Shown here: piece after piece, positions 21,211 to 54,396 of the stretch
How positions within the stretch are numbered: the stretch's first letter is position 1
Layout of the letters: each line of letters starts with the position of its first letter
Origin: a virus
Taxonomy: Duplodnaviria; Caudoviricetes
Direction: 5' to 3' (one strand)
IMG/VR virus record: IMGVR_UViG_2974703250_000001
Location: 13,567-77,566 of that record
Length of the DNA stretch: 64,000 nt
Notes under the pieces: model-generated
What the model saw: the letters and a program-made list of their open reading frames with translations, nothing else
The model's database searches: none
What the model was told of the DNA's origin: nothing
Position numbers and translations under genes: made by a program

Positions 21211-21394
21211 CGCTTAAAAATCTTATAGCTGTCACTTACGAAGTAACTCCGTAGTCGGAGGGTCCGTGTTTAGCGTCCGGGCCGCAGAGTGGTTCGCCTG
21301 CAAGTAAGCCAGCATTGAATACGTGTGTATTTCCGCACTACGAACTGGTCCCTGATGGGTTTATGTCCTATCGGCAGCCGGAGACGTGCGGGGT

Positions 21395-21505
21395 AGCGAT
21401 ACGCGGTTGGTACCTGAGGGTGACCGCATGAAAACGCTCTGGCGGGGTCCGTGGCCGAATCTACGGGTCAGAGCATCCCCGGTTCGATTCCGGGGTATCG
21501 CACCA
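21395..21505 (+). ncRNA. tRNA-like structured RNA (acceptor stem, T-arm and CCA, with non-tRNA interior)
   Basis: GCGATAC/GTATCGC 7-bp stem, A discriminator, CCA; CCCGG-TTCGATT-CCGGG T-arm; two long internal hairpins. Confidence 0.6.
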
Positions 21506-21652
21506 AGCCGGAGCGGTTGAGACGCACAGCGCTAACGGGCATTAGCGCTTATAGGTGCGCGACGTAAGGGTGTGGCGTCCGCTGCCACCTGTTGCGCTCC
21601 CGCTCCGGCCTTTCACTTTCCACCTTCACCACAACCACGAAAGGGCAGTCAG

Positions 21653-22069
21653 ATGACGGTTATTTACTTGGGTGAACCAACCGGCCCACGACTCCGCGAC
21701 CTCAGCCGGTCGCAGGAGAAAGCCCTTAACGACTGGCTCACGATGGCACTGGTTGTGCCACCGACGAGGCGCGAAGAAATCCCCGTCGACTTTACGCGAG
21801 CGCTTAGTGCCCTGGCTAAGCGTAGGGGTATCCGGTTCCACTTCAACAGTGACCGGATGCGGGTACGCGGCGAAGCTGTGCTCGGTAAGAACATGCCCGG
21901 CTGCGTTGGCGGCACCAAACGAAAGGTCACGGTTACCGATGAAAGGCAAGTGGCTACGAAAGCTCAATCCTCTATCCGGGTCAAAGCCCGGTCCGGAGGT
22001 TTCGTCTCCGGCGGTGGAGAAGGTATCGCCCCTTACCACGACCGGGACTGGCGCGACGACTACCTATAG
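21653..22069 (+). CDS. Hypothetical protein
   Basis: GAAAGGG RBS preceded by the CACCACAACCAC leader motif. Confidence 0.6.
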   Translation: MTVIYLGEPTGPRLRDLSRSQEKALNDWLTMALVVPPTRREEIPVDFTRALSALAKRRGIRFHFNSDRMRVRGEAVLGKNMPGCVGGTKRKVTVTDERQVATKAQSSIRVKARSGGFVSGGGEGIAPYHDRDWRDDYL

Positions 22070-22310
22070 CTATAGGCGGTGTGCGCGCTGCAACGCCCTA
22101 TTGACGTTCAAGTACAGGAGATGTACGGTATGCAACATGGAACCGGAACTGGCCGCGTGGAAGAAGGAACTGCTGTGGCGTGCGACCTGGGATGCGGAGC
22201 GGTTTACCCCGCCGGGCGTGCATGGCAGCGCGACCTTCACCACTACGCCTCCGAAAAGGGCATCCTTCCCACCTGCGGGCGGGGTGCAGAGCGAAAGGCG
22301 CGAGCCGCTA

Positions 22311-23108
22311 ATGCTGAGGCAGCCTGAAAAGTTGATGCTGGCCGGTGACTGGCACGGTAACTTGCCGTGGGCATTCAAGGCCATTAACTACGCCAAGTTC
22401 AACCGTGCAGACACGATTCTGCACGTTGGCGACTTCGGCTGGTGGAAGGCTGGTCCAGCCACCTACCAGTTCCTCGAAGAGGTCAACAAAGAGTGCGAGC
22501 ACCACGGCATCGACTTGCTGTGGGTTGACGGTAACCACGAGGACCACGCGTTCTTAGGTTCGTTCAACGTCCCCGGCGCTCAGCCGCTCACTACTAAGTC
22601 CTATCCGCGCATTACGCACCTACCGCGCGGGTACCGGTGGGTGTGGTGGGGCGATACGTGGATGGCGCTTGGCGGCGCTCATTCGGTCGACCGCTCATTC
22701 GCTGTTGAGGGTGAGTCCTGGTGGCCGGGCGAGTGGCTGGATGACAAGCAGATGGATTACGCGATGCGACCTGGCAAGGTCGACATCATCGTGGCCCATG
22801 ACGCGCCTACCAACGTCGAGATTCCCGGCATTGAGCCTGGTAAGGACATTTGGCTTCGTATCGACGGTAAGCCGCGCAAGGTTCCTCAGGTCGACAAGCT
22901 TAAGGCCGAGGAACACCGCGCCCGTATCCAGCAAGTGTGCGATGCGGTTAAGCCGGTCGAGTTCTATCACGGCCACTATCACCGCGACTACAACGCGTTG
23001 TGCCGGATTGAGGGCGGCGGCTACATGAACGTCCGGGGCCTCGATAAGGACGAAACCACGATTGCCAAAAACACGTATTTCATCACGGAAGGGCTAGACG
23101 AGGAATGA
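22311..23108 (+). CDS. Calcineurin-like metallophosphoesterase
   Basis: GDWHG, VGDFG, GNHE, AHDAP and GHYH motifs; true start near 22311, not 21672. Confidence 0.9.
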   Translation: MLRQPEKLMLAGDWHGNLPWAFKAINYAKFNRADTILHVGDFGWWKAGPATYQFLEEVNKECEHHGIDLLWVDGNHEDHAFLGSFNVPGAQPLTTKSYPRITHLPRGYRWVWWGDTWMALGGAHSVDRSFAVEGESWWPGEWLDDKQMDYAMRPGKVDIIVAHDAPTNVEIPGIEPGKDIWLRIDGKPRKVPQVDKLKAEEHRARIQQVCDAVKPVEFYHGHYHRDYNALCRIEGGGYMNVRGLDKDETTIAKNTYFITEGLDEE

Positions 23109-25854: not shown

Positions 25855-27273
25855 ATGGCTACCTTTTTGCAGAGCTTGCAGTCCCAGTTCAACACCACTC
25901 GCACGGAGAACGGCGATAAGGCGCACAAGTCGTCGCTTGATCCGGTGGTGGATTACTTCGGCCTAGCGGGCGCTATGCGTGACCGCGCCGAGGCGTCGGC
26001 TGACCTGTTCGAGAAGGCGTTCCGATTCGACCCACAGGCGGCGGTCCGGACCCTGTTCTATCTGCGTGACGTGCGCGGGGGCCAGGGCGAGCGTGACGTG
26101 TTCCGTGCGGGCCTCAAGCGGCTTCTGGCGAAGTGGCCGGGCGCTGACTACTCGGTGCTCAAGCATGTGCCGTTCTACGGGCGCTGGGACGACCTGTTCT
26201 ACGACGGCGCGAACGTCACGCCCGCCGTGGCCCGGATTCTCCACTATCAGTGGGCCTCCGACGTTGCGGCGTACGAGCGTGGCGATCAGGTGTCGCTCAT
26301 GGCTAAGTGGCTGCCGTCCGACAAGGCCGCTAACAAGGAGCTGGCTATCGCGGTGCGTCAGGCGCTCGGTCTGACTCAGCGTGAGTACCGGCAGACCCTT
26401 ACGGCTCTTAGGGGCCGGATTGGTCTCGTCGAGCACGATATGTCGGAGCGCACTTACGAGCACATCGACTACTCGCGGCTCCCGGCTCAGGCGCACCGTA
26501 AGCACGTTAAGGCGTTCCGGCGCAACGACGGTGAGCGGTACCAGGCGTTCCTTGACGCGGTGCAGCGTGGCGAGGCGAAGGTGAACACGTCGACCCTGTA
26601 TCCGTACGAACTGTTCGACCTGTGCCGGTCGGACCCTTCGGCGGCTGACGCGTTGTGGAAGAACCTGCCGGACTACACGCAGCCGGGCCAGGATGCGCTA
26701 GTCCTGCCGGACGTTTCCGGTTCGATGGCGGGGCGTCCTATCTCGGTGTCGGTGTCGCTGGCGCTGTACTTCGCTGAGCGCAACACGGGTCCGTACAAGG
26801 GCTATTTCCTGTCGTTCGACACCACGCCCAAGCTGGTTCAGGTGCCGGAGTCGGGAGACTTGCAGAGCAAGTTACGGGCGATCAGTAGCCATACCAACAA
26901 CTGGGGTTCGACCAACTTGCGGGCCGCGTTTACCGCGATCCTCAGGGCGGGGTTGCAGTCGGGCACCGTCCCGGCCACGCTCTACGTCGTGTCGGACATG
27001 CAGTTCGATCAGGCGCTTAACAACGCCGATCTGAGCGTGTTCGAGTCGGCCAAGCTCTCGTTCCAGCAGGCGGGCCTTGAGCTGCCGCACGTCGTGTTCT
27101 GGAACGTGAACGCGCGGCATGATCAGTTGCCCGCGACGGCTATGGACGGAAACGTGACTCTCGTTTCCGGGCTGGCTGCTACGACGTTTGCGCTGGCTGT
27201 GCAGGGTAAGTCCCCGCGTGAGCTGGTGGACGACGTAATCAATTCGGAGCGATACGAGAAAATCGTTCTGTAA
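25855..27273 (+). CDS. TROVE-like plus vWA protein (Ro60-like, DUF2828-type)
   Basis: TENG...SS.DP.VD.F start; LFYLRDVRGGQGER; GRWDDL; AKWLPS; MIDAS motif DVSGSM; GSTNL..AF; VVSDMQFD; VFWNVNA. Confidence 0.85.
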   Translation: MATFLQSLQSQFNTTRTENGDKAHKSSLDPVVDYFGLAGAMRDRAEASADLFEKAFRFDPQAAVRTLFYLRDVRGGQGERDVFRAGLKRLLAKWPGADYSVLKHVPFYGRWDDLFYDGANVTPAVARILHYQWASDVAAYERGDQVSLMAKWLPSDKAANKELAIAVRQALGLTQREYRQTLTALRGRIGLVEHDMSERTYEHIDYSRLPAQAHRKHVKAFRRNDGERYQAFLDAVQRGEAKVNTSTLYPYELFDLCRSDPSAADALWKNLPDYTQPGQDALVLPDVSGSMAGRPISVSVSLALYFAERNTGPYKGYFLSFDTTPKLVQVPESGDLQSKLRAISSHTNNWGSTNLRAAFTAILRAGLQSGTVPATLYVVSDMQFDQALNNADLSVFESAKLSFQQAGLELPHVVFWNVNARHDQLPATAMDGNVTLVSGLAATTFALAVQGKSPRELVDDVINSERYEKIVL

Positions 27274-27316
27274 AACTTCCATCTTGCCGGGATGGCTCGG
27301 TAAGGTTGGAAACAGG

Positions 27317-27371
27317 TGGACGCGAACAGCAATCAAAACTTCTTCTGCTAAAAGAAACCAAGTGCGTCCAG
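27317..27371 (+). ncRNA. Y-RNA-like unit 1 (short)
   Basis: TGGACGC/GCGTCCA closing stem with ACAGCAAT motif. Confidence 0.6.
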
Positions 27372-27382
27372 TTTAAAACCTG

Positions 27383-27513
27383 TGGACCCCCACAGCAATA
27401 AAACTACTTCCATGATAAGGACGAGGCGCGGGTTCAAATCCCGCAGCTCTTACGGTTTTCACCGTAAGGGTTTAGCTCAGGGGCAGAGCGCGTAAGTAAA
27501 AACAGGGGTCCAG
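27383..27513 (+). ncRNA. YrlA-like Y RNA with circularly permuted tRNA mimic
   Basis: TGGACCCC/GGGGTCCA stem enclosing a T-arm (GCGGG-TTCAAAT-CCCGC), a loop-closed acceptor-like stem (CTCTTACGG/CCGTAAGGG) and a D-arm (TAGCTCAGGGGCAGAGCG). Confidence 0.85.
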
Positions 27514-27526
27514 TACATAGCGGCTG

Positions 27527-27581
27527 TGGACACTAACAGCGATTCTAACTCTTTCAAATGGTGAAAATAGAATGTGTCCAG
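27527..27581 (+). ncRNA. Y-RNA-like unit 3 (short)
   Basis: TGGACAC/GTGTCCA stem with ACAGCGAT motif and inner ATTCTA/TAGAAT stem. Confidence 0.6.
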
Positions 27582-27596
27582 TTCCACCGCGTTTGA

Positions 27597-27636
27597 TCCG
27601 CCCCGCGCCTAAATGACTGCGGGGCGGATTTTTTTA
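27597..27636 (+). terminator. Intrinsic terminator after the Y-RNA array
   Basis: TCCGCCCCGC...GCGGGGCGGA followed by a T7 run. Confidence 0.85.
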
Positions 27637-27775
27637 TGCCTAACGGAGGAAACATGCCAGGACCGATGTCCGCACCTAACGGAAACAAGCTGATCACGGT
27701 GAGCGCAGAGGCCCGTAAGAAAGCCGGTCGGACCGGCAAGACGGAGCTGGTGCGCGAGCGGAAAGGTAACAAGCA

Positions 27776-36100: not shown

Positions 36101-36513
36101 GCACGAACTATTCGCCTATCCAGTGGCCGGTGGCCGAGACGCTGCTAGAGCGGCAGGCGATCTTCATTTATGAGGGTGCCCGGTTGCAGGCGGCAGCCGT
36201 TAACGCGCCGATCATTCCTGAGCCGTGGGACAAGCGCGATGAAGCTTTCAAGACGCAGTTCCTTGGTATCACGCAGAAGATGATGGGTCCGGACCGCTTC
36301 ACTGATCCGGAAGCCGCCCACGATTCGTGGTGGCGCGCATACGAAGCCTTGGGGTGGAGCTATGGCCCCGTTCGGGATACGGAAGCTAAGACGCACCCGG
36401 ACATGGTTCCTTTCGCTGACCTGGGCTGGGAGGAACGCATGAAAGACGCGGTGTGGATAGCGCTGTGTGAAATCGCCCGGCAGTGGATCGTGGAGGAAAA
36501 TCCTTATGAGTAA
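36097..36513 (+). CDS. Stand-alone RyR-domain protein
   Basis: AHDSW...[23 protein letters not shown]...ERMKD matches the RyR repeat consensus (H..W....GW.YG..RD...K.HP.L.P...L...K..D). Confidence 0.82.
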
Positions 36514-37990
36514 GTTTGCACCCGTTGCGGCGCTCTTTCAGACAGACGCGTACAAGCTGGGCCATATCGACCAGTACGCGCTTAGCGGGGAAGTGACCCG
36601 CGTCTATTCCAACTGGACTAACCGGAAGTCGCGCCTGCCCGGCGTGGATAAGGTGGTCCACTTCGGATTGCAGGCGTATATCCAGGCCCACTTGGTGGAC
36701 GCGTTCGAGCCGTTCTTTAAGACGCTCGACGAGGACCAGGTAGCGGAGCTTTACGAGGAACGGGTAGCGCAGATTCTCGGGCCGGACGCGGCTAAGAGTA
36801 TCGGCAGCGACCACATTCGGAAGCTGCACCGTCTGGGGTATCTGCCGCTGCGGTTTAACGCGGTGCCGGAGGGTACGGCGGTGCCTATCGGGGTGCCGTC
36901 GTTCACGGTGGAGAACACGCACCCGGACTTCTACTGGCTGACGAACTACGTGGAGACCGGCCTGAGTGCCGGGGTGTGGCAGGCCAGCACGTCCGCGACC
37001 ATTGCCCGCGAGTACCGCAAGGTGCTTGACGCGGCTGCCAAGCGGACTGGCGCTGATCCGGCGGGCGTCGACTGGCAGTGCCACGACTTCTCTTACCGGG
37101 GCATGTCGTCGCACGAGTCGGCGGCGTCGTCGGGGGCCGCGCACCTGTTGAGCTTCACGGGTACGGATTCGCTGGTGGCGCTCGACTGGATTGACCGCTA
37201 CTACGGCGGCGAGTTCGTCGCGGGCTCGGTCCCGGCTACGGAGCACTCGGTGATGTGTACCGGCATTGAGACGGTCGGGGAGCTTGAGACGTTCAAGCGG
37301 CTGCTGGACCTGTACCCGACCGGCATCGTTAGCGTCGTCAGCGACACGTTCGACCTTTGGGCCGTGCTGACTCGGTATTTGCCGACGCTCTACGGCCAGA
37401 TCGTGGGCCGGGACGGCAAGCTGGTTATCCGGCCCGACTCGGGCGATCCGGAGAAGATCATTTGCGGTGATCCCAACGCGCCCAAGGGTTCTAACGAGTG
37501 GTGGGGCGCTCTTAACCTGCTTTACGACACGTTCGGCGGGGTTAAGAACGACGCGGGCTACATCGAACTGGACTCGCATGTCGGCCTGATCTATGGCGAC
37601 TCGATCACGTTGGATCGCGCTAAGAGCATCACTGATCGCATGGAGAAGCTGGGCTTCGCGTCGTCAAACGTGGTGTTCGGCGTCGGGTCGTTCACGTATC
37701 AGCACAACACGCGTGACACGTTCGGGTCCGCGATGAAGGCGACGTGGGCCGAGGTCGACGGCAGGGGCTACAACCTGCTCAAGAACCCGGTGACCGACGA
37801 CGGCACCAAGAAGTCCGCGACCGGGCGTCTGGCAGTGCTGCGCGACCTGCAAGGGGAGCTGGTGCTTGTCCAGAACGCAGACCAGTACGACGAGTTCGCA
37901 TCGGAACTGCGTCCGGTTTGGGAGAACGGAAAGTTCGTCCTGAGGCAGTCATTCGCCGGGGTCAGGGGCACTTTAGCCCAGCAGAGCTAG
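36506..37990 (+). CDS. NAMPT-like protein; candidate nicotinamide ADPR-transferase (Namat) of NARP1
   Basis: [68 protein letters not shown]. Confidence 0.9.
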
Positions 37991-38090
37991 ACGGTTAAGT
38001 CCGGGTTTCCGGACGTTTTCGTGGGCATTGGGTACATGCGACGTACTGTTGTGTGTACCCAACAGCCCGACGAAAGAAAGGGGGTTGAAA

Positions 38091-39029
38091 ATGACTCTGA
38101 CTCTTACCGCAATGCGCGGTTATCCCGGCTCGGGGAAGTCGACTACGGCGCGCACTGTTGCTAATAACACGGGCGCGGTGGTGGTTTGTCGTGACGAGCT
38201 GCGGAACATGCTGCACGGCGTGTACTTCAACGATGGTTCTAACCATCCTAAGTCGCCTAAGGACTTTGAGGATGAGGTAACCATTGCGGAGCGTGCGCAG
38301 GTCGCAGCCTTTCTCAAGGCTGGCGTTTCGGTAGTTGTCGACGCTACGCATTTGGAGCCGTCTTACTTGCGTAAGTGGGCGAAGATGGCCTCAATGTACG
38401 GCGCTGACTTCGTGCGGGTCGATCACATCACGCCGGTTGACGAGTGTCGTAAGCGGGACCACGCCCGGATGCTCGCTGGTGGCCGGTACGTGGGTGACAA
38501 GGTTATCGAGAAGATGGCTAAGCGTCACCCGGTGAAGAACTGGCCGGATATTCAAGCGCCACCGACGTTCACGCCGGAGCCGGTTGAGTGGGAGCCGGGC
38601 CTGCCTACGGCAATCATTGTCGATATCGACGGCACGGTGGCGCACATGACGGGGCGTTCACCTTACGACTACAGCCAGGTCCATACCGACGTGGTTGATG
38701 AGCAGATTCGATGGCTGGTCAACACGGTTGAGTCCGAAGGCGTGTTCGTCCTGTTCGTGTCGGGCCGGGATGACGAGTGCCGGGAGGCTACTGAGAAGTG
38801 GCTTGCGGAAAACGGCATCGTCTACGACGAGCTGTACATGCGGCCTACCGGCGCTAAGGACAACCACGGGAACAAGCTGCCCGACTACCTGGTGAAGTCC
38901 GACCTGTTCGATAAGCATATTCGCGGCAAGTACAACGTGCGGTTTGTGCTCGACGACCGGGACCAGGTTGTGAACCTGTGGCGTGCGCTGGGCCTTAAGT
39001 GCCTGCAAGTTCAGCCGGGCGACTTCTGA
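38091..39029 (+). CDS. pnk: Polynucleotide 5'-kinase/3'-phosphatase (T4 PseT-like)
   Basis: GYPGSGKS P-loop, RDELR, VVVDAT; HAD motif DIDGT, SGRD, LDDR. Confidence 0.92.
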   Translation: MTLTLTAMRGYPGSGKSTTARTVANNTGAVVVCRDELRNMLHGVYFNDGSNHPKSPKDFEDEVTIAERAQVAAFLKAGVSVVVDATHLEPSYLRKWAKMASMYGADFVRVDHITPVDECRKRDHARMLAGGRYVGDKVIEKMAKRHPVKNWPDIQAPPTFTPEPVEWEPGLPTAIIVDIDGTVAHMTGRSPYDYSQVHTDVVDEQIRWLVNTVESEGVFVLFVSGRDDECREATEKWLAENGIVYDELYMRPTGAKDNHGNKLPDYLVKSDLFDKHIRGKYNVRFVLDDRDQVVNLWRALGLKCLQVQPGDF

Positions 39030-42325: not shown

Positions 42326-43603
42326 GTGAGCTTTGATACGCCGGAGAACGTTAACTACGCGGCGACAATCGTCAAGCTGCCGCAGGGCCTTCTCCTAGAA
42401 GGTCTCGACAACCTGGTGGGCGTGCCCATGTTCGGCTACCAGGCGCTCACCCAAAAAGAAGGCTACGAGCTGGGCGCTCTGCGGGTGCTGTTCATGGCCG
42501 AAACGCAGCTCGACGCGGACTACGCGCGGGAGAACAACCTGTTCCGCGAGGCCACGTTGAACCGGGACGCCAGCGAGACCGGCTACCTAGAGCCGAACGC
42601 CCGTGTGAAGGCGATCCGGCTGCGCAAGCACCAGTCAGACGCACTGCTGATGCCGTTGTCGTCGCTGGCCTACACCGGCTACGACGTGTCCACGCTCAAG
42701 CCGGGCGACACGTTCGACAAGCTGAACGGCCACACGATCTGCCGCAAGTACATCCCGAAGGGTAAGAAGCAGGCCACGCAGGGCCAGCCCAAGGTGCGTA
42801 AGCAGGTCGACGAGCGTCTGTTCCCGAAGCATCTGGACACGGAGCACTTCTTCCGGAACCTGCACTACTTCCGTACGGAGCGGCGCGTTGTGGTGACGCA
42901 GAAGCTCCACGGCACGAGCTGGCGGGGCGGCAATATCCCAGTTAACCGGACTAAGGGCTGGTTTGAGCGGTTCATTAACTGGCTGGGCTGGTTCACCCAT
43001 GACACCGAGTACAAGCACGTCTACGGCTCTCGGAACGTCGTTAAGGGCCGCTCGGAGAATAACCACTACTACGCGTCTGATCTGTGGGCCGAGTACGGAA
43101 AGAAGCTTGAGGGGAAGATTCCCGAGAACTTCATCATTTACGGCGAGCTGATCGGATGGGTTGATAACGACACCCCGATTCAGAAGGGCTACACGTACAA
43201 CCTGCCTCCGGGCCAGTGTGAGCTTTACGTGTACCGGGTGGCGACGGTTAACAACCAGGGTGTGATTGCGGACCTGTCGTGGGAGGGCGTTAAGGACTTC
43301 TGCGCGAGCTTGGACCTTAAGACGGTGCCGGAGTTTTACCTGGGCGTCGATCATTACCCGTTCGCGGACAATGACGATGCCGTTGTCAAGATTGCCTCTG
43401 AGGCGTACCTGGACAAGCGGTATGCCGACGAGGGGTTCCCGAACGCGGTTCCGCTGAGTGACCGCAAGACGGTTGACGAGGGTGTCTGCGTCCGTGTTGA
43501 GGGCCAGATTCCGCACGTCTTTAAGGCGAAGTCTCCGAAGTTCCTTGAGCACGAGACTAAGCAGTTTGATAAGGGAGAGGTTGACCTTGAAGCGGTGGCA
43601 TAA
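42326..43603 (+). CDS. ATP-dependent RNA ligase (Rnl2/DRB0094-like with N-terminal extension)
   Basis: Motif I TQKLHGT, motif III IYGELIG, motif IV EGVCVR, motif V FKAKS. Confidence 0.88.
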   Translation: MSFDTPENVNYAATIVKLPQGLLLEGLDNLVGVPMFGYQALTQKEGYELGALRVLFMAETQLDADYARENNLFREATLNRDASETGYLEPNARVKAIRLRKHQSDALLMPLSSLAYTGYDVSTLKPGDTFDKLNGHTICRKYIPKGKKQATQGQPKVRKQVDERLFPKHLDTEHFFRNLHYFRTERRVVVTQKLHGTSWRGGNIPVNRTKGWFERFINWLGWFTHDTEYKHVYGSRNVVKGRSENNHYYASDLWAEYGKKLEGKIPENFIIYGELIGWVDNDTPIQKGYTYNLPPGQCELYVYRVATVNNQGVIADLSWEGVKDFCASLDLKTVPEFYLGVDHYPFADNDDAVVKIASEAYLDKRYADEGFPNAVPLSDRKTVDEGVCVRVEGQIPHVFKAKSPKFLEHETKQFDKGEVDLEAVA

Positions 43604-50237: not shown

Positions 50238-50310
50238 GCCACCTTAGCTCAGTTGGTAGAGCAGCCCCTTCGTAACGGGCAGGTCAGCGGTTCGACTCCG
50301 CTAGGTGGCT
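50238..50310 (+). tRNA. tRNA-Thr(CGT)
   Basis: Cloverleaf; anticodon loop TT-CGT-AA. Confidence 0.88.
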
Positions 50311-50311
50311 C

Positions 50312-50542
50312 GTGAGTGATAGATACCAGGCGACGGTTGGTCGCATAGTGCATTACCAGTCGTACGGCACGCCTAACGGCGAGTATTTACCCGAACCGCG
50401 CGCAGCCATTGTGACGACGGTGGGGCACGATGGAAATGTGGGGTTGGCAGTCCTTAACCCTACGGGCATGTTCTTTAACGAGTATGTGCCTTATGCGGAT
50501 AAGCCGACGCCGGGGCATTGGAATTGGCCTCCGCGCGTATAA
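50312..50542 (+). CDS. Conserved hypothetical protein
   Basis: TVGRIVHY...PRAAIVT.V...GLAVLNPTGMFF...GHWNWPPRV, a widespread phage pattern. Confidence 0.7.
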   Translation: MSDRYQATVGRIVHYQSYGTPNGEYLPEPRAAIVTTVGHDGNVGLAVLNPTGMFFNEYVPYADKPTPGHWNWPPRV

Positions 50543-50759
50543 CTGAATAGGGAGTAGATATGACTGATTTTGAGGGTAGAGACCCAATCAAGGTGGCTAA
50601 GGACGCGCTTGGCGTCGTGCAGGAACTTCGGGACCGCGCAGAGTGGCCTAAGGGTGAGATTCCCGAGCAGGCTAAGAAGCCTGCCAAGGTTGGGAACGCG
50701 TAAGTTTCAACAGTCATTGCCAAGGCTATGCGTAAGCATCCTCAAACCGGCAATGCAAT

Positions 50760-50833
50760 CTGGCTGTAGCTCAACTTGGTAGAGCGCTGGCTTTGGGTGC
50801 CAGGGGTTCGGGGTTCAAATCCTCGCAGTCAGA
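50760..50833 (+). tRNA. tRNA-Pro(TGG)
   Basis: Cloverleaf; CTGGC-TTTGGGT-GCCAG. Confidence 0.9.
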
Positions 50834-51182
50834 CCTAGGGAATCATCGGACCCGTACAATCCGGTGTTGTGGTGACAGAGTGTGCAGTTCGTAGCCGGGC
50901 TGCAATGTGGCGTGAAGCCCCTAAGCGGGGGCGGATGGAATCGGTTAGCTACCGTAGCGTGCTGGACTGAGCTTGATGGGGTACACATAGCCTACGGCTA
51001 CCCCTGTTTTGCTTGGACTCGGAGGCTGGAATACCTCCCCACTATCCCGTTTTTCTTTAGGGGAGCACCCTTGCCTTGTGGGCTTGTGGCCCCTTCGGTT
51101 GGTCCACCGACTGGACGGCCCGCGCTCGACGCGCGTTATAAGAAGCGGCCAGGGCGGGAGCCGTACCCAATCCCGCCGTCTA

Positions 51183-51259
51183 AGCTCGGTAGCTCAGTCT
51201 GGTAGAGCGGCGGTCTCCAAAGCCGCATGTCGCAGGTTCAAATCCTGTCCGGGTTGCCA
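51183..51259 (+). tRNA. tRNA-Trp(CCA)
   Basis: GCGGT-CTCCAAA-GCCGC; encoded CCA. Confidence 0.9.
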
Positions 51260-51282
51260 TTGGCGTACAAGCCGTGTACTAT
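51254..51282 (+). promoter_or_regulatory. Promoter for the main tRNA block with GTAC-N7-GTAC operator
   Basis: TTGCCA-17 bp-TACTAT; ATG 7 nt downstream (leaderless). Confidence 0.7.
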
Positions 51283-51622
51283 GTGTGACATGAAAGCTGA
51301 ACTGTTGAACGCAGCAGGTATCTTGGCGCGACGGCTGGGTGATCAGTTCTCCCGGTTGCACCTGTGGCTGTATGGGTTGTCGGGCACGTTGGATGGCATG
51401 GCTGACAGCGCCGGGTACTGGGATCGCCACGATGCCTAAGACGCCCGACTTTCGTCACTTGGTGGTCGAGGACACGGCTGGGTTTCTGCGTCGTCGCTTC
51501 GGCATGTCTGAGGTCGACGCGAAAGCTGAGGCTGAGCGCCAGGTGGACGCTCTGGCTGAGCGGTCCGAGCAGGGCTACTCAGACTCTTTGGGGCTGTGGT
51601 GACATAAAGGCCGATTTTTTCA

Positions 51623-51696
51623 GGGACCGTAGCCCAATTGGCAGAGGCAATAGGCTTAGACCCTATCCAGTGTGCGTTCGAGTCGCACCGGTTCTA
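51623..51696 (+). tRNA. tRNA-Leu(TAG), short variable loop
   Basis: ATAGG-CTTAGAC-CCTAT; variable region about 5 nt. Confidence 0.8.
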
Positions 51697-51768
51697 CGCT
51701 AAGTAGCTTAATGGTAAAGCGCCCGGTTGTGGTCCGGGTGATTCCGGTTCGACTCCGGGCTTAAGCCA
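51697..51768 (+). tRNA. tRNA-His(GTG)
   Basis: CCCGG-TTGTGGT-CCGGG; irregular acceptor stem. Confidence 0.78.
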
Positions 51769-51769
51769 C

Positions 51770-51842
51770 GCGCGGGTAGCTCAGTGGTTAGAGCACTGCT
51801 CTGATAAGGCAGGGGTCCGTGGTTCAAATCCACGTTCGCGCA
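51770..51842 (+). tRNA. tRNA-Ile(GAT)
   Basis: CTGCT-CTGATAA-GGCAG. Confidence 0.88.
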
Positions 51843-51906
51843 CTTATCACACCTATGTTAGTTTTGTCAAACAACCAAAACGGCGAAATTGGCGGTTTGG
51901 TTGTAT

Positions 51907-51978
51907 TGCCTGGTCTTCTAATTGGCAGGATGCCGGAATCTGACTCCGGTGGTTGAGGTTCGAGTCCTTGCCGGGCAG
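51907..51978 (+). tRNA. tRNA-Gln(CTG)
   Basis: CCGGA-ATCTGAC-TCCGG. Confidence 0.85.
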
Positions 51979-51979
51979 C

Positions 51980-52053
51980 GTGCTAGTAACCCATGTTGGC
52001 TGGGTGCCTGCCTTCCAAGCAGGATTTCGCGGGTTCGATTCCTGTCTAGCACA
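51980..52053 (+). tRNA. tRNA-Gly(TCC)
   Basis: CCTGC-CTTCCAA-GCAGG. Confidence 0.85.
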
Positions 52054-52102
52054 CACTGCCCCCTTCTAAGCCTCTCAGCGATGCTCAAATAGGAGGGGCC
52101 TT

Positions 52103-52175
52103 GCCTCGTTAGCTCAGTTGGTAGAGCTGCCGACTCTTAATCGGTAGGTCACAGGTTCAAGTCCTGTACGGGGTA
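52103..52175 (+). tRNA. tRNA-Lys(CTT)
   Basis: GCCGA-CTCTTAA-TCGGT. Confidence 0.92.
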
Positions 52176-52207
52176 CTTACACACACGTATTCAATGCTGG
52201 CTTACTG

Positions 52208-52289
52208 GGAGAGTACCGCTCATGGGAGCAAGCCGCCTTGAAAGCGGTAGGCAGGCGAAAGCCTGGGAGTTCGATTCTTCTACTCTCCG
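52208..52289 (+). tRNA. tRNA-Ser(TGA)
   Basis: GCCGC-CTTGAAA-GCGGT; long variable arm CAGGC-GAAA-GCCTG. Confidence 0.85.
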
Positions 52290-52295
52290 CGTTTA

Positions 52296-52367
52296 GGGGT
52301 TATAGCTTAGTTGGTAAAGCACCGGTCTTGCACACCGGCGTCCGGGGTTCGATTCCCCGTTTCTCCA
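52296..52367 (+). tRNA. tRNA-Ala(TGC)
   Basis: CCGGT-CTTGCAC-ACCGG; G3:U70 present; two U-U mismatches in the acceptor stem. Confidence 0.82.
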
Positions 52368-52381
52368 CTTAAGGGGGTTCG

Positions 52382-53071
52382 GTGTCGGAGGTTAAGAGCC
52401 TTTATGGCACGCGAACGTCGAAATACTGGGAGGCCGCTCCGGCGAAGATGGACGCGCTGAATCTGCGCATGATCTTCCCGTCGAGCAACCGTTACGGGTT
52501 CCCTGATCTAGAGCTGTGTGATTGGCTGCCGGATTGCTTGGGTGCGTGGCATCTGCCGCGTCAGCGGGACCGGGCAGCGGCCAACAACGGCGCTGTGCAT
52601 TTCTTTTTGGATGACTACCGCTTTGAGACCGCGTTTACGAGCCCTGAGAGGACCGTGGGTCGAGTTTTGGCGGTGGGTGGGGCACTGACGCCTGATTTCA
52701 GTCTGTGGCGCGATATGCCGCGTGCTGGGCAGCTCTGGAATGTGTACCGGTCGCGCTGGTGTGGTGCGTACTGGCAGAGCCAGGGCGTGAGGGTCATTCC
52801 TACGGCCTGCTGGGCTCGCTCAGACACTTTTGACTTCTGTTTCGATGGACTACCGCAGGGCGGGCCGGTGGCGGTCTCAGCGCTTGGTGTGCGGGCGAAC
52901 GGTGAGGATCGCGGCGTGTTCCGCGACGGCCTGGCCGAGCTGGTCGCGCGTGTCCGGCCTTCGTGCATCTTGAGCTACGGACGCCTGGTGCATGTCGACG
53001 AGCTTGATCTGCCGCCGGTTCGTGAGTATCCGACCTTTTGGGATGAGCGTCGTAAGGCGGTTAAGGCTTAG
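52382..53071 (+). CDS. DUF4417-family protein
   Basis: HFFLDDYRFE, TPDFSLWRDMP, QLWNVYRSRW.G.YWQ..G..VIPT..W, CFDG.P. Confidence 0.82.
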   Translation: MSEVKSLYGTRTSKYWEAAPAKMDALNLRMIFPSSNRYGFPDLELCDWLPDCLGAWHLPRQRDRAAANNGAVHFFLDDYRFETAFTSPERTVGRVLAVGGALTPDFSLWRDMPRAGQLWNVYRSRWCGAYWQSQGVRVIPTACWARSDTFDFCFDGLPQGGPVAVSALGVRANGEDRGVFRDGLAELVARVRPSCILSYGRLVHVDELDLPPVREYPTFWDERRKAVKA

Positions 53072-53080
53072 GGGGTTCTG

Positions 53081-53431
53081 GTGGGCGGTCGCGGTGGTGG
53101 TGGCGGTGGCCCGGCTAGTTCCCGGTCGTCAACGGTGACGTTGTATCACCGGACGAGTGCGAGTGCTGCGCGGTCGATTGTGGATCGTGGGTTCAATCCG
53201 GAGTTTCGGCCTGGCACTAACAAGTCTTATCGTGATGAGAACTCGCAGTATGGGTTCTTTACTAAGACGGTTAAGGGTCAGGAGGGATACGGCCAGAATG
53301 TTGTGGCTGTGGAAGTCCCTAAGTCTGCTGTGCAGCGTGATCCGTGGTCGGGTCATGTTCGTGTGAAGGTGGAAGACCTTAGAAACGCAAACTTCCGGCA
53401 CTATGAGGGTAAGCGCCGGAAGAAGCGGTAG
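53081..53431 (+). CDS. MGGRG-leader protein with ADP-ribosyltransferase-like core
   Basis: LYHRT...SIVDRGF...YGFFT...YG..VVAVEVP resembles the H-Y-type ART fold. Confidence 0.55.
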   Translation: MGGRGGGGGGPASSRSSTVTLYHRTSASAARSIVDRGFNPEFRPGTNKSYRDENSQYGFFTKTVKGQEGYGQNVVAVEVPKSAVQRDPWSGHVRVKVEDLRNANFRHYEGKRRKKR

Positions 53432-53432
53432 T

Positions 53433-53507
53433 GCCGTCATGGCTGAGTGGTTAGGCGTCGGACTGCAAATCCGGCTTATCCCGGTTCGATTCCGGGTGGC
53501 GGCTCCA
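53433..53507 (+). tRNA. tRNA-Cys(GCA)
   Basis: TCGGA-CTGCAAA-TCCGG; U discriminator plus CCA. Confidence 0.9.
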
Positions 53508-54054
53508 TTCGCAGGTATGCCCTACGGGTAGCTCTACGTAGGTGCGTAGGCACTTGAGGCATAGCGTAAGGCCCCACACGGCTACTCTCCGTGAAGGCGC
53601 TTGTATTCGGCGATTTCAGCGTCCGTGGCTTCGCGGATGCCGACAACTTTCCACTTGCGCCTGATCAGACCCTTATCCATGAGCCAGCCTTTGATCTTGG
53701 CGTAGACGGCGATAGGCCACAGGAAACGGCCTAGGCCAGCCCAGCCGGGTTCGATATCGTCGGGGTCGTTCTTGCTCATTCTTCCTCCATCCAAACGTTA
53801 GCGTCGGGCAGGATGCCCAACAGGTTGTTTACGAGACGGTCGGCTTTCTCGTGGTCTATGTCGCTGAGCACGATCCGGTCGTCGTCTATGACGTCTTTCA
53901 TCCAGACTGTCCACATGGCCTATGCCTTCCGTGGCTCTTGTGGGGCGCGCTTGCAGCCGGGTTTGCATGGTTGCCCAAGTTTTGCGCCACAGCCGCCGTA
54001 TGCGCGAGGGCAAAGCTCGGTTAGCGCGAGTTGTTTCATGGTTGGCATGTTTAT

Positions 54055-54127
54055 TCCTCCGTAGCTCAATTGGCAGAGCGCGCGACTGTTAATCGCGTGG
54101 TTGGTGGTTCGAGTCCACCCGTTGGAG
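54055..54127 (+). tRNA. tRNA-Asn(GTT)
   Basis: CGCGA-CTGTTAA-TCGCG; two acceptor mismatches. Confidence 0.85.
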
Positions 54128-54323
54128 CTTATTGGCGCTTAATCGTCACACTGGCTATGTGGCCGTGTTTCTCGATTTCGTGCTGTACCGCTTCGGCTGC
54201 TAGTTCACGTATGAACGTCTTAGCGGTGAGCGGTCCGACTAACTTAAAGTCCTCTATCAACTTGTCTAGGTCCATTGTGCAGACGAGTGTGATGAGGAAT
54301 TGACCTTTAGGGCGTTGCATGGG

Positions 54324-54396
54324 TGCCCCCACTAGGGATCGAACCTAGGACCCGATGATTAAAAGTCACCTGCTCTGCCAACTGAGCTATAGGGGC
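54324..54396 (-). tRNA. tRNA-Lys(TTT), the only leftward tRNA
   Basis: Reverse complement GCCCCTATAGCTCAGTTGGCAGAGCAGGTGACTTTTAATCATCGGGTCCTAGGTTCGATCCCTAGTGGGGGCA. Confidence 0.92.

What the first reader, a model, noticed from the sequence alone, without database searches (positions are those of the whole stretch)
27383..27513. Circularly permuted tRNA mimic (YrlA-like)
Seen: the order is T-arm (GCGGG-TTCAAAT-CCCGC), then an acceptor-like helix capped by a TTTTCA loop (no free CCA end), then a D-arm with AGCTCAG-GG-CAGAGC; there is no anticodon arm. Established: this is the YrlA architecture, which is a substrate for tRNA-modifying enzymes. Inference: it could act as a decoy for host tRNA-targeting nucleases or recruit elbow-binding enzymes.
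Basis: partly seen in the sequence, partly recalled or inferred. Interest (0 to 1): 0.7.

Follow-up and report, generated by a model that had tools for sequence, protein, structure and literature searches.

The report
tRNA-shaped partner RNA of Ro-like protein
A mycobacterial virus encodes a small RNA shaped like a rearranged tRNA, the middle one of three small RNAs placed directly behind a gene for a Ro60-like ring protein; all three carry a shared "handle" that accompanies this protein family in many phages, which points to a little-described relative of the Ro/Y-RNA particle.

Summary
The described RNA is real. At 27381-27514 (+) a conserved stem encloses a T arm, an acceptor-like hairpin closed by a loop, and a D arm. 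All three helices covary across relatives. One detail is probably wrong: a short hairpin with a 7-nt loop (27407-27423) sits where an anticodon arm belongs, though support for it is modest.

The RNA is the middle of three tandem units (27315-27372, 27381-27514, 27525-27582) in a cluster L mycobacteriophage. They lie between a Ro60-fold gene (25855-27273, Pfam DUF2828) and a terminator.

Each unit has the same handle: a 7-8 bp covarying stem, ACAGC(A/G)A, and a trailing G. A model of that handle finds copies beside DUF2828 genes, always on the gene's strand, in unrelated Staphylococcus, Bacillus, Listeria and Campylobacter phages. It finds none in phage Bxz1, which has a canonical TROVE Ro and a CGAA-type YrlA.

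So the RNA works like YrlA but is not a YrlA family member: Rfam gives 20 bits against a cut-off of 69, and the defining motif is absent. Binding to the protein and any function are inferred, not shown.

I found no paper describing these RNAs. Earlier notes of this scan report the same class on other DNA in at least 96 genomes.

The parts
25855..27273 (+). Ro60-fold protein gene (472 aa; Pfam DUF2828 + DUF7788/vWA; PHROG 850 'RNA-binding protein')
   Evidence: Pfam E 1.7e-29 and 2e-28. PHROG E 2e-153. AlphaFold2 model has pLDDT 87 and pTM 0.86. The top 13 Foldseek PDB hits are all Ro60/Rsr/TROVE, including Thermus phage phiLo Ro60 (E 2e-7 to 3e-4, TM 0.4-0.6, 10-16% identity). HMMER against PDB sequences finds nothing.
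27277..27311 (+). Hairpin just after the stop codon, with no U tract
   Evidence: Predicted. Relatives keep a hairpin here with a different sequence (alignment A1). Its role was not tested.
27315..27372 (+). Unit 1: short handle RNA (stem UGGACGC/GCGUCCA, ACAGCAA, apical 4-5 bp hairpin with 7-nt loop CUGCUAA)
   Evidence: Model R1 gives 52.8 bits, E 5e-10 (it is a seed sequence). The stem covaries in cluster L: GGACGC/GCGUCC, GGACAC/GUGUCC, GAGCGC/GCGCUC.
27381..27514 (+). Unit 2, the finding: handle enclosing a circularly permuted tRNA-shaped body
27383..27398 (+). Unit 2 handle, 5' side: stem strand UGGACCCC (27383-27390), one base, then ACAGCAA (27392-27398)
   Evidence: The stem pairs with 27505-27512. 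Position 8:142 of alignment A2 is C-G in 8 sequences and U-A in 6. ACAGCAA is invariant in cluster L unit 2 except for GCAGCAA in the LeBron type.
27407..27423 (+). Anticodon-arm-like hairpin CUUCC-AUGAUAA-GGACG (one U.C mismatch)
   Evidence: Present in the minimum-energy and centroid folds. Two double changes against the Archie type. 5/5 pairs in L047, L048, L057 and L064. The ARAGORN control is weak.
27428..27444 (+). T arm GCGGG-UUCAAAU-CCCGC
   Evidence: Matched by Rfam YrlA and by a local tRNA hit. 97.9% paired in 29 relatives.
27445..27472 (+). Acceptor-like hairpin closed by a loop (11 bp here)
   Evidence: It is 7 bp in most relatives, with unrelated sequences (UAGCGGC/GUCGCUG, CACCGGG/CCCGGUG, CGCCACC/GGUGGUG).
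27473..27489 (+). U8/A9-like 'UA' plus D arm GCUC-AGGGGCA-GAGC (GG of the D loop present)
   Evidence: GCUC/GAGC is replaced by GUUC/GAAC in the LeBron type (compensatory).
27505..27514 (+). Unit 2 handle, 3' side: GGGGUCCA plus trailing G and U
27525..27582 (+). Unit 3: short handle RNA (ACAGCGA variant). Flanking GCGG (27520-27523) and CCGC (27587-27590) could lengthen its stem.
   Evidence: R1 gives 45.2 bits, E 3e-8 (it is a seed sequence). The stem covaries: GGACAC, GGUCAC, GGACGG with matching partners. The flanking bases are invariant, so the extension is unproven.
27595..27636 (+). Intrinsic terminator: 13-bp G+C-rich stem followed by U7
   Evidence: Fold. Present in all 15 aligned phages. 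The simple scan missed it because its loop is longer than 8 nt.

Best explanation
The finding is the tRNA-shaped member of a three-gene array of Y-RNA-like partner RNAs for the phage's Ro60-fold protein, which belongs to the DUF2828 family.

The array lies between that gene and a terminator on the same strand. It is probably transcribed with the gene and then cut into single RNAs.

Each RNA has the same handle: a 7-8 bp closing stem, two bases, ACAGCAA, and a G after the stem. I take the handle to be what the ring protein recognises, as Ro60 recognises the conserved stem of Y RNAs.

The part above the handle is exchangeable cargo. In units 1 and 3 it is a hairpin that looks like an anticodon arm. 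In unit 2 it is a whole tRNA body whose natural ends are joined by a loop and which is opened instead between the D arm and the anticodon arm. This body keeps the bases that build the tRNA elbow: U8, A14, GG in the D loop, and UUCAAAU in the T loop.

The particle would therefore display a tRNA look-alike. The likely purpose is to hold a tRNA-binding host factor at the ring, either an exoribonuclease as in Ro/Y-RNA/PNPase complexes or a defence nuclease that attacks tRNA. This would serve the phage's conflict with the host over tRNA and RNA integrity.

Shown here: the structure, its conservation and covariation, the Ro60-like predicted fold, and the co-occurrence of handle and DUF2828 gene across unrelated phages.

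Inferred: transcription, processing, protein binding, and every functional consequence.
For: Structure:
- T arm, closed acceptor and D arm in tRNA-like spacing.
- Fold z = -4.7.
- Covariation of the handle, T stem and acceptor-like stem.
- ARAGORN finds no tRNA in the native order (0 of 28) but of 26 after un-permuting. The window's RNA is called tRNA-Ile(GAU).

Partner protein:
- The adjacent same-strand gene folds like Ro60.

Shared handle and its link to DUF2828:
- Three units share the handle in all 15 cluster L phages aligned.
- In 80 IMG/VR loci chosen only for a DUF2828 homologue (37-91% identity), 68 carry at least one motif-plus-closing-stem unit anywhere in the locus (gene plus up to 2 kb each side). 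Most lie just beside the gene; a few hits fall inside coding sequence and are spurious.
- Handle model R1 finds copies directly beside the gene, all 18 on its strand, in phages that were not seeds: Staphylococcus CF9 (E 1e-9), Bacillus vB_BcoS-136 (4e-9), Listeria AG20 (2e-7) and Campylobacter CP30A (2e-3). Hits are weaker in Ralstonia RSP15 and Salmonella FO1a.
- The handle occurs only at this locus in the 77.6-kb genome.
- It is absent from Bxz1, which has a TROVE Ro.

Context:
- The same genome encodes Pnkp and an RNA ligase and 14 tRNAs.

Literature:
- Ro/Y RNAs tether PNPase, and YrlA is handled by tRNA enzymes (PMC4201824).
- A phage Ro60 binds phage Y-like RNAs and host PNPase (PMC12135203).
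- Bas63 gp130, described as Ro60-like (Bas63 is the non-model phage of that study), counters the Ppl defence (bioRxiv 10.1101/2024.10.10.617714).
Against: - There is no direct evidence that the RNAs are made, cut out, or bound by the protein. No RNA run was listed.
- No promoter-like site was found.
- Rfam YrlA is far below its cut-off, and the Ro-binding motif known from YrlA is missing. Binding therefore rests on analogy plus co-occurrence.
- The units used to build R1 were picked by a rule that demanded a 7-bp complement, so their 100% pairing is by construction. Only the pair diversity and the hits in non-seed phages are independent.
- The anticodon arm is weakly supported. ARAGORN still% of constructs whose anticodon segment was shuffled, and 12 of 40 for the window.
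- Some cluster L phages lack the Ro-like region altogether (Underpass, PMC12714340), so the module is not essential.
Confidence: 0.75

Rival explanations
1. It is a canonical YrlA, a member of the published and Rfam family, that has simply diverged.
For: Same module order. A local RF02553 hit covers the T arm, acceptor and D arm. A YrlA-like RNA beside the TROVE Ro gene of Bxz1 also fails the Rfam cut-off at 32.5 bits, so the cut-off is harsh on phage RNAs.
Against: The GNCGAAN0-1G motif is absent from the conserved positions. The Bxz1 RNAs have GCCGAAGG/GCCGAGAG and no ACAGCAA. Handle model R1 gives 0 hits in Bxz1. The partner protein is a different Pfam family with no HMMER-detectable similarity to Ro60.
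Confidence: 0.08
2. It is a structured 3' untranslated element of the Ro-like mRNA. The tRNA-like fold would act as a processing or stability signal for RNase P or RNase Z, not as a partner RNA.
For: It lies between the stop codon and the terminator, on the same strand, with no promoter-like site of its own.
Against: In other phages the same handle units lie upstream of the gene or scattered in tRNA arrays, in arrays of 2-5. Units without any tRNA-like part keep the handle. The cargo is swapped between close relatives while the handle is kept.
Confidence: 0.08
3. It is a permuted tRNA gene that is matured into a working tRNA-Ile(GAU), perhaps with the phage's own Pnkp and RNA ligase.
For: Un-permuting gives a tRNA-Ile call. 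Pnkp and an RNA ligase are encoded in the same genome.
Against: The acceptor ends are joined by a 4-6 nt loop with no discriminator or CCA. The acceptor stem here is 11 bp. Sister phages at the same place carry bodies with no anticodon loop, where a long-range 5-bp stem replaces it (ACCGG/UUGGU, ACUGC/GCGGU). The genome already has a normal tRNA-Ile(GAU) at 51770-51843. The ARAGORN call is not specific.
Confidence: 0.03
4. It is a decaying tRNA remnant or a chance fold without function.
For: Two GenBank records annotate a tRNA under the matched region: tRNA-Thr in Zakai, which I checked overlaps the 5' part of unit 2, and tRNA-Asn in Gardann.
Against: Compensatory changes occur in four helices across phages with 40-90% protein identity. 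0 of 200 shuffles fold as well.
Confidence: 0.02

Closest known systems
YrlA-type bacterial and phage Y RNAs with Rsr/Ro60 (Chen et al. 2014, PMC4201824; Rfam RF02553). Example examined here: the RNA 190 nt upstream of Bxz1 gp220 (TROVE + vWA_Ro60).
   Same: The ends are locked in a stem. The tRNA-like domain has the order T arm, closed acceptor, D arm. It is encoded beside, and on the strand of, a Ro60-shaped protein gene. It is accompanied by shorter sibling RNAs, as YrlB accompanies YrlA.
   Different: The conserved motif is ACAGCAA plus a trailing G, not GNCGAAN0-1G. The partner protein is Pfam DUF2828 with no detectable sequence similarity to TROVE. The Rfam score is 20.1 against 69. The handle model finds nothing in Bxz1. 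Here a local anticodon-arm-like hairpin is probably present.
Thermus phage phiLo Ro60 with Yrl1/Yrl2 (Hu et al. 2025, PMC12135203; PDB 9kop, 9l5y)
   Same: A phage-encoded Ro60-fold protein with phage-encoded Y-like RNAs next to its gene. Its structure is among the best matches to the model of the window's protein.
   Different: The phiLo RNAs were found through the CGAA motif and lie upstream of the gene. Binding to the protein and to host PNPase was shown for phiLo. Nothing is shown for the cluster L system.
Bas63 gp130, a Ro60-like protein that counters the Ppl defence (bioRxiv 10.1101/2024.10.10.617714)
   Same: Felix O1-type phages encode homologues of the window's protein at about 33% identity. 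In one of them, Salmonella phage FO1a, R1 gives a weak handle hit downstream of the gene. My taking gp130 to be the Bas63 copy of this homologue is an inference from my own knowledge that Bas63 is Felix O1-like. The preprint suggests that nearby 'tRNAs' may be Y RNAs.
   Different: The preprint identifies no RNA and no motif. I did not align gp130 itself with the window's protein, so the equivalence is inferred, not tested.
Circularly permuted tRNA genes of the red alga Cyanidioschyzon merolae (recalled from my own knowledge; not checked here)
   Same: The 3' half of the tRNA precedes the 5' half, and the acceptor ends are joined.
   Different: Those genes are matured into working tRNAs. Here the ends are held by a handle shared with non-tRNA units, there is no discriminator or CCA, and sister phages carry bodies without an anticodon loop.

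Membership tests
YrlA (Rfam RF02553; Chen et al. 2014) | Covariance model score at or above the gathering score (69 bits) | tested here: not met
   20.1 bits, E 0.11, model positions 30-81 only. No hit at gathering threshold. The YrlA-like RNA of Bxz1 also reaches only 32.5 bits.
YrlA (Rfam RF02553; Chen et al. 2014) | GNCGAAN0-1G motif near the 5' end (proposed Rsr contact) | tested here: not met
   The conserved 5' element is N4-ACAGCAA. 'CGAA' occurs only in the window's unit 1 and is not kept in relatives. Bxz1 has GCCGAAGG.
YrlA (Rfam RF02553; Chen et al. 2014) | tRNA-like domain with T arm, D arm and an acceptor-like stem closed by a loop | tested here: met
YrlA (Rfam RF02553; Chen et al. 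2014) | Encoded within 4 kb of, and on the same strand as, a TROVE-domain Ro60 orthologue | tested here: inconclusive
   It is 108 nt downstream on the same strand. The protein is DUF2828/DUF7788 in Pfam, not TROVE. It resembles Ro60 only in predicted structure.
YrlA (Rfam RF02553; Chen et al. 2014) | Bound by Rsr; carries tRNA-type modifications | not testable with these tools
   Needs immunoprecipitation and modification mapping.
ACAGCAA-handle RNAs beside DUF2828 genes (a class defined by this scan; I found no publication) | 7-bp or longer covarying closing stem, about two bases, ACAGC(A/G)A, and a G after the 3' strand | tested here: met
   All three units. 74 short units show 7 of 7 stem positions with double changes, though pairing itself was a selection rule.
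ACAGCAA-handle RNAs beside DUF2828 genes (a class defined by this scan; I found no publication) | Lies beside a DUF2828 gene on the same strand, across unrelated phages | tested here: met
   (non-seed phages, 18 of 18 hits on the gene's strand). Absent from TROVE-type Bxz1.
tRNA (Rfam RF00005) | Contiguous cloverleaf with free, paired 5' and 3' acceptor ends | tested here: not met
   ARAGORN finds nothing here. The Rfam tRNA model matches the T arm only, 16.3 bits. The acceptor is closed by a loop.
Permuted tRNA genes that yield working tRNAs | Discriminator and CCA-competent acceptor end; a conserved anticodon arm | tested here: not met
   A 4-6 nt loop joins the acceptor strands. Sister phages lack an anticodon loop at this place.

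The most novel reading that the evidence does not exclude
DUF2828 proteins and ACAGCAA-handle RNAs form a second, mostly phage-borne lineage of Ro/Y-RNA particles. The handle docks on the ring. The swappable cargo, either a whole permuted tRNA or an anticodon-arm mimic, captures or misleads host factors that act on tRNA. The particle would then be a general counter-defence device, and cluster L mycobacteriophages in M. smegmatis would be a workable genetic system for testing it.
Probability: 0.5. Interest if true: 0.8.

Novelty: new variant of a known kind. Interest (0 to 1): 0.65.

Why it matters
Ro60 and Y RNAs are an old and only partly understood RNA-surveillance system. Outside animals it has rested on one protein family (TROVE) and one RNA signature (CGAA).

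Here a Ro60-shaped protein from a different sequence family comes with its own RNA signature. The RNAs display tRNA look-alikes, and the pairing recurs in phages of Actinobacteria, Firmicutes, Campylobacter and enterobacteria.

If the RNAs bind the protein, this would explain:
- hundreds of unannotated phage intergenic regions;
- some wrongly called phage 'tRNA' genes. The Zakai record annotates a tRNA-Thr that overlaps unit 2, and the Gardann record lists a tRNA-Asn under the matched region;
- an RNA cofactor for a protein already linked to escape from a bacterial defence system.

The cluster L phages can be engineered, form lysogens, and have natural variants that lack the module, so the idea can be tested directly.

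Tried and rejected
- **Rfam:** nothing at gathering threshold in 27274-27640. At E <= 10 there is only the sub-threshold YrlA hit, plus chance-level hits to Tymo_tRNA-like (20 bits), RsmY and others.
- **ARAGORN:** no tRNA at the locus.
- **HMMER against PDB sequences:** no Ro60 hit with the single protein or with a 42-sequence profile. The link to Ro60 is by predicted structure only.
- **MAFFT plus RNAalifold on unit 2:** this missed the acceptor-like stem because its length varies. I parsed the arms by anchoring on the T and D loops instead.
- **Three-way-junction reading:** I considered the handle entering the anticodon stem between positions 28 and 29. I prefer the simpler local 5-position hairpin seen in distant phages. 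The two cannot be told apart without probing.
- **Un-permuting test:** positive, but its control shows that ARAGORN is lenient. I use it only for the acceptor/D/T body.
- **Promoter scan:** no sigma-70-like site. This is not informative for mycobacterial promoters.
- **RNA evidence:** no RNA holder was listed.
- **The look-up of encoding contigs:** I used the search for related loci instead.
- **Chen et al. 2014 supplementary tables:** not held. I could not check whether any cluster L phage was among their 22 phages.
- **Literature:** a search for 'DUF2828' gave 5 unrelated papers. 'Ro-like RNA binding protein' gave genome announcements only.
- **attP remnant:** rejected, because the integrase lies about 9 kb upstream in the relative Chaser.
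- **Second tRNA-like RNA at 21211-21652,** noted earlier in this scan: Rfam finds nothing there. I did not study it further.

Full report
**Where the window comes from**

The window is part of a 77,566-base virus record. Its nearest cultivated relatives are cluster L mycobacteriophages of M. smegmatis, family Vilmaviridae. Chaser and Bromden are 88% identical over the region.

The finding lies in a 367-nt gap (27274-27640). Upstream is an ORF at 25855-27273 (+, 472 aa). Downstream is a small ORF starting at 27636.

**Checking the observation**

- T arm GCGGG-UUCAAAU-CCCGC at 27428-27444.
- Directly after it, a hairpin at 27445-27472 whose two strands occupy the places of the 3' and 5' acceptor strands and are joined by a U-rich loop.
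- Then 'UA' and the D arm GCUC-AGGGGCA-GAGC at 27473-27489.
- An 8-bp stem (27383-27390 with 27505-27512) closes the whole.

The fold energy is -49.1 kcal/mol, z = -4.7, and no shuffle of 200 folds as well.

ARAGORN calls no tRNA here. Rfam has no hit at gathering threshold. At a loose threshold, YrlA (RF02553) matches 27427-27489 with 20.1 bits against a cut-off of 69, covering exactly the T arm, acceptor and D arm.

**Conservation and covariation**

I fetched the same gap from 14 other cluster L phages and aligned them. MAFFT misaligns the acceptor-like stem because its length varies, so I anchored each sequence on its T and D loops.

- The acceptor-like stem is 7 bp in most phages and 11 bp in the window. 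Its sequences are unrelated: UAGCGGC/GUCGCUG, CACCGGG/CCCGGUG, CGCCACC/GGUGGUG, UCGCUCG/CGGGCGA.
- T stems change in step: GCGGG/CCCGC, CUGGG/CCCAG, GCGAG/CUCGC, ACAGG/CCUGU.
- The D stem changes from GCUC/GAGC to GUUC/GAAC.

Over 29 non-redundant long units from many phages:

| Helix | Paired | Partners shuffled (mean) | Shuffled (maximum) |
|---|---|---|---|
| T stem | 97.9% | 77% | 87% |
| Acceptor-like stem | 87% | 55% | 66.5% |

. G-U pairs in these stems fit the + strand.

**The anticodon arm**

Four bases before the T arm lies CUUCC-AUGAUAA-GGACG (27407-27423): a 7-nt loop on a 5-position stem with one U.C mismatch. It is present in both the minimum-energy and centroid folds.

- The Archie and Faith1 type has UUCCA-CUGUUAA-UGGCG, which differs by two double changes that keep pairing.
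- Distant phages have perfect versions: UUCUC-AUGAUAA-GAGAG, UUCCA-CUGAUAA-UGGAG, UUCCU-CUUGUAA-AGGAG.
- Other cluster L phages (Snenia, Krypton555, Douge, LeBron) have instead a long-range 5-bp stem between the bases after the D arm and those before the variable loop (ACCGG/UUGGU, ACUGC/GCGGU, ACCGA/UUGGU). That is the arrangement described for YrlA.

I tested the permuted-tRNA reading directly. In the native order ARAGORN of 28 long units. After cutting the acceptor loop and joining the D arm to the anticodon-like arm it of 26, and the window's RNA is called tRNA-Ile(GAU).

The control weakens part of this. With the anticodon segment shuffled, 51% of constructs are still called, and 12 of 40 for the window. 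The test therefore supports a permuted acceptor/D/T body, but only weakly supports the anticodon arm.

**Three units, one handle**

The alignment shows that the finding is the middle of three tandem units: 27315-27372, 27381-27514 and 27525-27582.

Each begins (U)GUGGAC-N4-ACAGC(A/G)A and ends GUCCAG(U). The inner stem bases covary:
- Unit 1: GGACGC/GCGUCC, GGACAC/GUGUCC, GAGCGC/GCGCUC.
- Unit 3: GGACAC, GGUCAC, GGACGG with matching partners.

Units 1 and 3 carry only a small hairpin with a 5-7 nt loop.

A hairpin (27277-27311) follows the stop codon. A 13-bp stem followed by U7 (27595-27636) ends the array. These features are present in all aligned phages.

In the whole window and in the whole genome, complete handles occur only here.

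**The neighbouring protein**

- Pfam assigns DUF2828 and DUF7788, with weak vWA hits.
- PHROGs calls it an RNA-binding protein.
- HMMER finds no solved relative, either with the sequence or with a 42-sequence profile.
- An AlphaFold2 model (pLDDT 87, pTM 0.86) has Ro60/Rsr/TROVE structures as its 13 best PDB matches, over the full length. These include Xenopus, human and Deinococcus proteins and the Ro60 of Thermus phage phiLo (E 2e-7 to 3e-4, TM about 0.4-0.6, 10-16% identity).

The Ro-like label therefore holds at the level of predicted fold.

**Is the handle tied to this protein family?**

tblastn finds homologues of the protein in 708 phage records from many hosts.

I fetched 80 IMG/VR loci chosen only for encoding a homologue, at 37-91% identity. 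In 68 of them at least one unit lies somewhere in the locus (the gene plus up to 2 kb on each side). A unit here means the motif [AG]CAGC[AG]A preceded by a stem strand whose 7-bp complement follows within 230 nt. Most are in arrays of 2-5 directly downstream or upstream of the gene, often among tRNA genes; a few hits fall inside coding sequence and are spurious. Outside mycobacteria the stem reads UAGAC or AAGAC rather than UGGAC.

In 74 non-redundant short units all seven stem positions show double changes. Their 100% pairing is by construction, because I selected on it.

I built covariance model R1 from these units and searched eight cultivated phages that were not seeds.

| Phage | Hits beside the gene | Best E-value |
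|---|---|---|
| Staphylococcus CF9 | three downstream | 1e-9 |
| Bacillus vB_BcoS-136 | several upstream | 4e-9 |
| Listeria AG20 | two upstream | 2e-7 |
| Campylobacter CP30A | one upstream | 2e-3 |
| Ralstonia RSP15 | weak | 0.016 |
| Salmonella FO1a | weak | 0.022 |
| Sinorhizobium phiM7 | weak | 0.28 |

Vibrio phage V09 gave no hit at E <= 1. All 18 hits are on the gene's strand.

Rfam finds only tRNAs in 20 of the IMG/VR loci.

**Contrast with canonical phage YrlA**

Bxz1 (cluster C) encodes gp220, a TROVE + vWA_Ro60 protein.

- The best Rfam YrlA hit in its 156-kb genome lies 190 nt upstream of gp220 on the same strand. It scores 32.5 bits, still below the cut-off.
- That region carries GCCGAAGG and GCCGAGAG, which is the published GNCGAA signature, and no ACAGCAA.
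- R1 finds nothing in Bxz1.

Phages of one host therefore carry two separate pairings: TROVE with CGAA-type RNAs, and DUF2828 with ACAGCAA-handle RNAs.

**Literature**

- Chen et al. 2014 (PMC4201824) found YrlA beside TROVE proteins in 254 bacteria and 22 phages. Their example was the mycobacteriophage ET08. Their supplementary tables are not held, so I could not check for cluster L phages.
- Hu et al. 2025 (PMC12135203) showed that phiLo Ro60 binds two CGAA-motif RNAs and host PNPase.
- A preprint (10.1101/2024.10.10.617714) reports that Bas63 gp130 is Ro60-like, counters the Ppl defence, and sits before tRNA genes 'possibly' including Y RNAs. It identifies no RNA.
- An announcement of phage Underpass notes that it lacks the 5-kb region holding the Ro-like gene, so the module is dispensable.
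- Searches for 'DUF2828' and 'Ro-like RNA binding protein' gave nothing on the RNAs.

**Earlier notes of this scan**

Earlier notes of this scan describe the same handle/DUF2828 pairing on other DNA: 107 findings hold the search words, in at least 96 genomes. They also describe the three-unit array in this genome.

I treat these as leads. The association, the fold and the structure were tested independently above.

One lead was that the genome also encodes RNA-repair enzymes. This holds: Pnkp at 38028-39029 and an RNA ligase at 42326-43603.

**Reading**

The RNA works like a YrlA-type Y RNA: a protein-docking stem plus a tRNA mimic. It fails two defining features of that family, so I do not file it there.

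The most likely mechanism is this. The handle binds the Ro-like ring. The permuted tRNA body, with an intact elbow and probably an anticodon-like loop, engages a tRNA-binding host factor. That factor could be an exoribonuclease as in Ro/Y-RNA/PNPase complexes, or a tRNA-directed defence nuclease.

Transcription, processing, binding and function are all inferred.

Rival readings are scored low for the reasons given in their sections: diverged YrlA, a 3' untranslated processing element, a permuted gene for a working tRNA, or a remnant.

Noticed in passing
window 27381-27514 compared with L002 405-535 (phage Douge): Douge's Ro-like protein is 92% identical and its units 1 and 3 are nearly the same. 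Its unit 2 nevertheless carries a different tRNA-like body: other T, acceptor and D sequences, and a long-range stem in place of the anticodon-like hairpin. The cargo seems to be exchanged as a cassette inside a fixed handle. In M. abscessus-type prophage loci (for example L025) the middle unit has no tRNA-like body at all.
   Followed up: partly
L005 470-540 (Zakai, annotated tRNA-Thr); Gardann record (annotated tRNA-Asn): The GenBank record of Zakai annotates a tRNA-Thr over the 5' part of unit 2 (checked against the locus). The Gardann record lists a tRNA-Asn under the matched region; I did not fetch it. These are probably miscalls driven by the anticodon-like hairpin and the T arm.
   Followed up: partly
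window 52062-52098 (+): Rfam abiF RNA (RF03085) scores 41.1 bits against a cut-off of 37, between tRNA-Gly and tRNA-Lys inside the phage's tRNA array. The stretch forms a hairpin, but its stability is not unusual (z = -1.7).
   Followed up: partly
window 50238-54396: An array of 14 tRNA genes. Thirteen are on the + strand and one, tRNA-Lys(UUU), is on the - strand. It lies 23 kb from the Ro-like module, whereas in many other phages the handle RNAs sit inside the tRNA array.
   Followed up: no
window 38028-39029 and 42326-43603: Genes for polynucleotide kinase-phosphatase (AAA_33 + HAD_PNKP) and an RNA ligase, the classic pair that heals and seals cut tRNA. A NAPRTase/NAMPT-like gene lies at 36467-37990.
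   Followed up: partly
window 21672-23108: A 478-aa ORF with a metallophosphoesterase C-terminal half (PHROG 1649, E 2e-81). Staphylococcus phage CF9 also has a metallophosphoesterase gene about 0.9 kb downstream of its DUF2828 gene, after an HNH endonuclease gene.
   Followed up: no
window 21211-21652: Earlier notes of this scan report a second tRNA-like structured RNA here. An Rfam search at E <= 1 found nothing. I did not examine it further.
   Followed up: partly
window 27519-27523 and 27587-27591: Invariant AGCGG and CCGCG flank unit 3 in all 15 cluster L phages and could add a 4-bp outer helix. With no variation, pairing cannot be judged.
   Followed up: no
L045, L047, L048 (IMG/VR loci): In these phages 5-8 handle units alternate with ordinary tRNA genes on both sides of the DUF2828 gene. 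Several units carry T-arm-only or whole tRNA-like bodies.
   Followed up: partly
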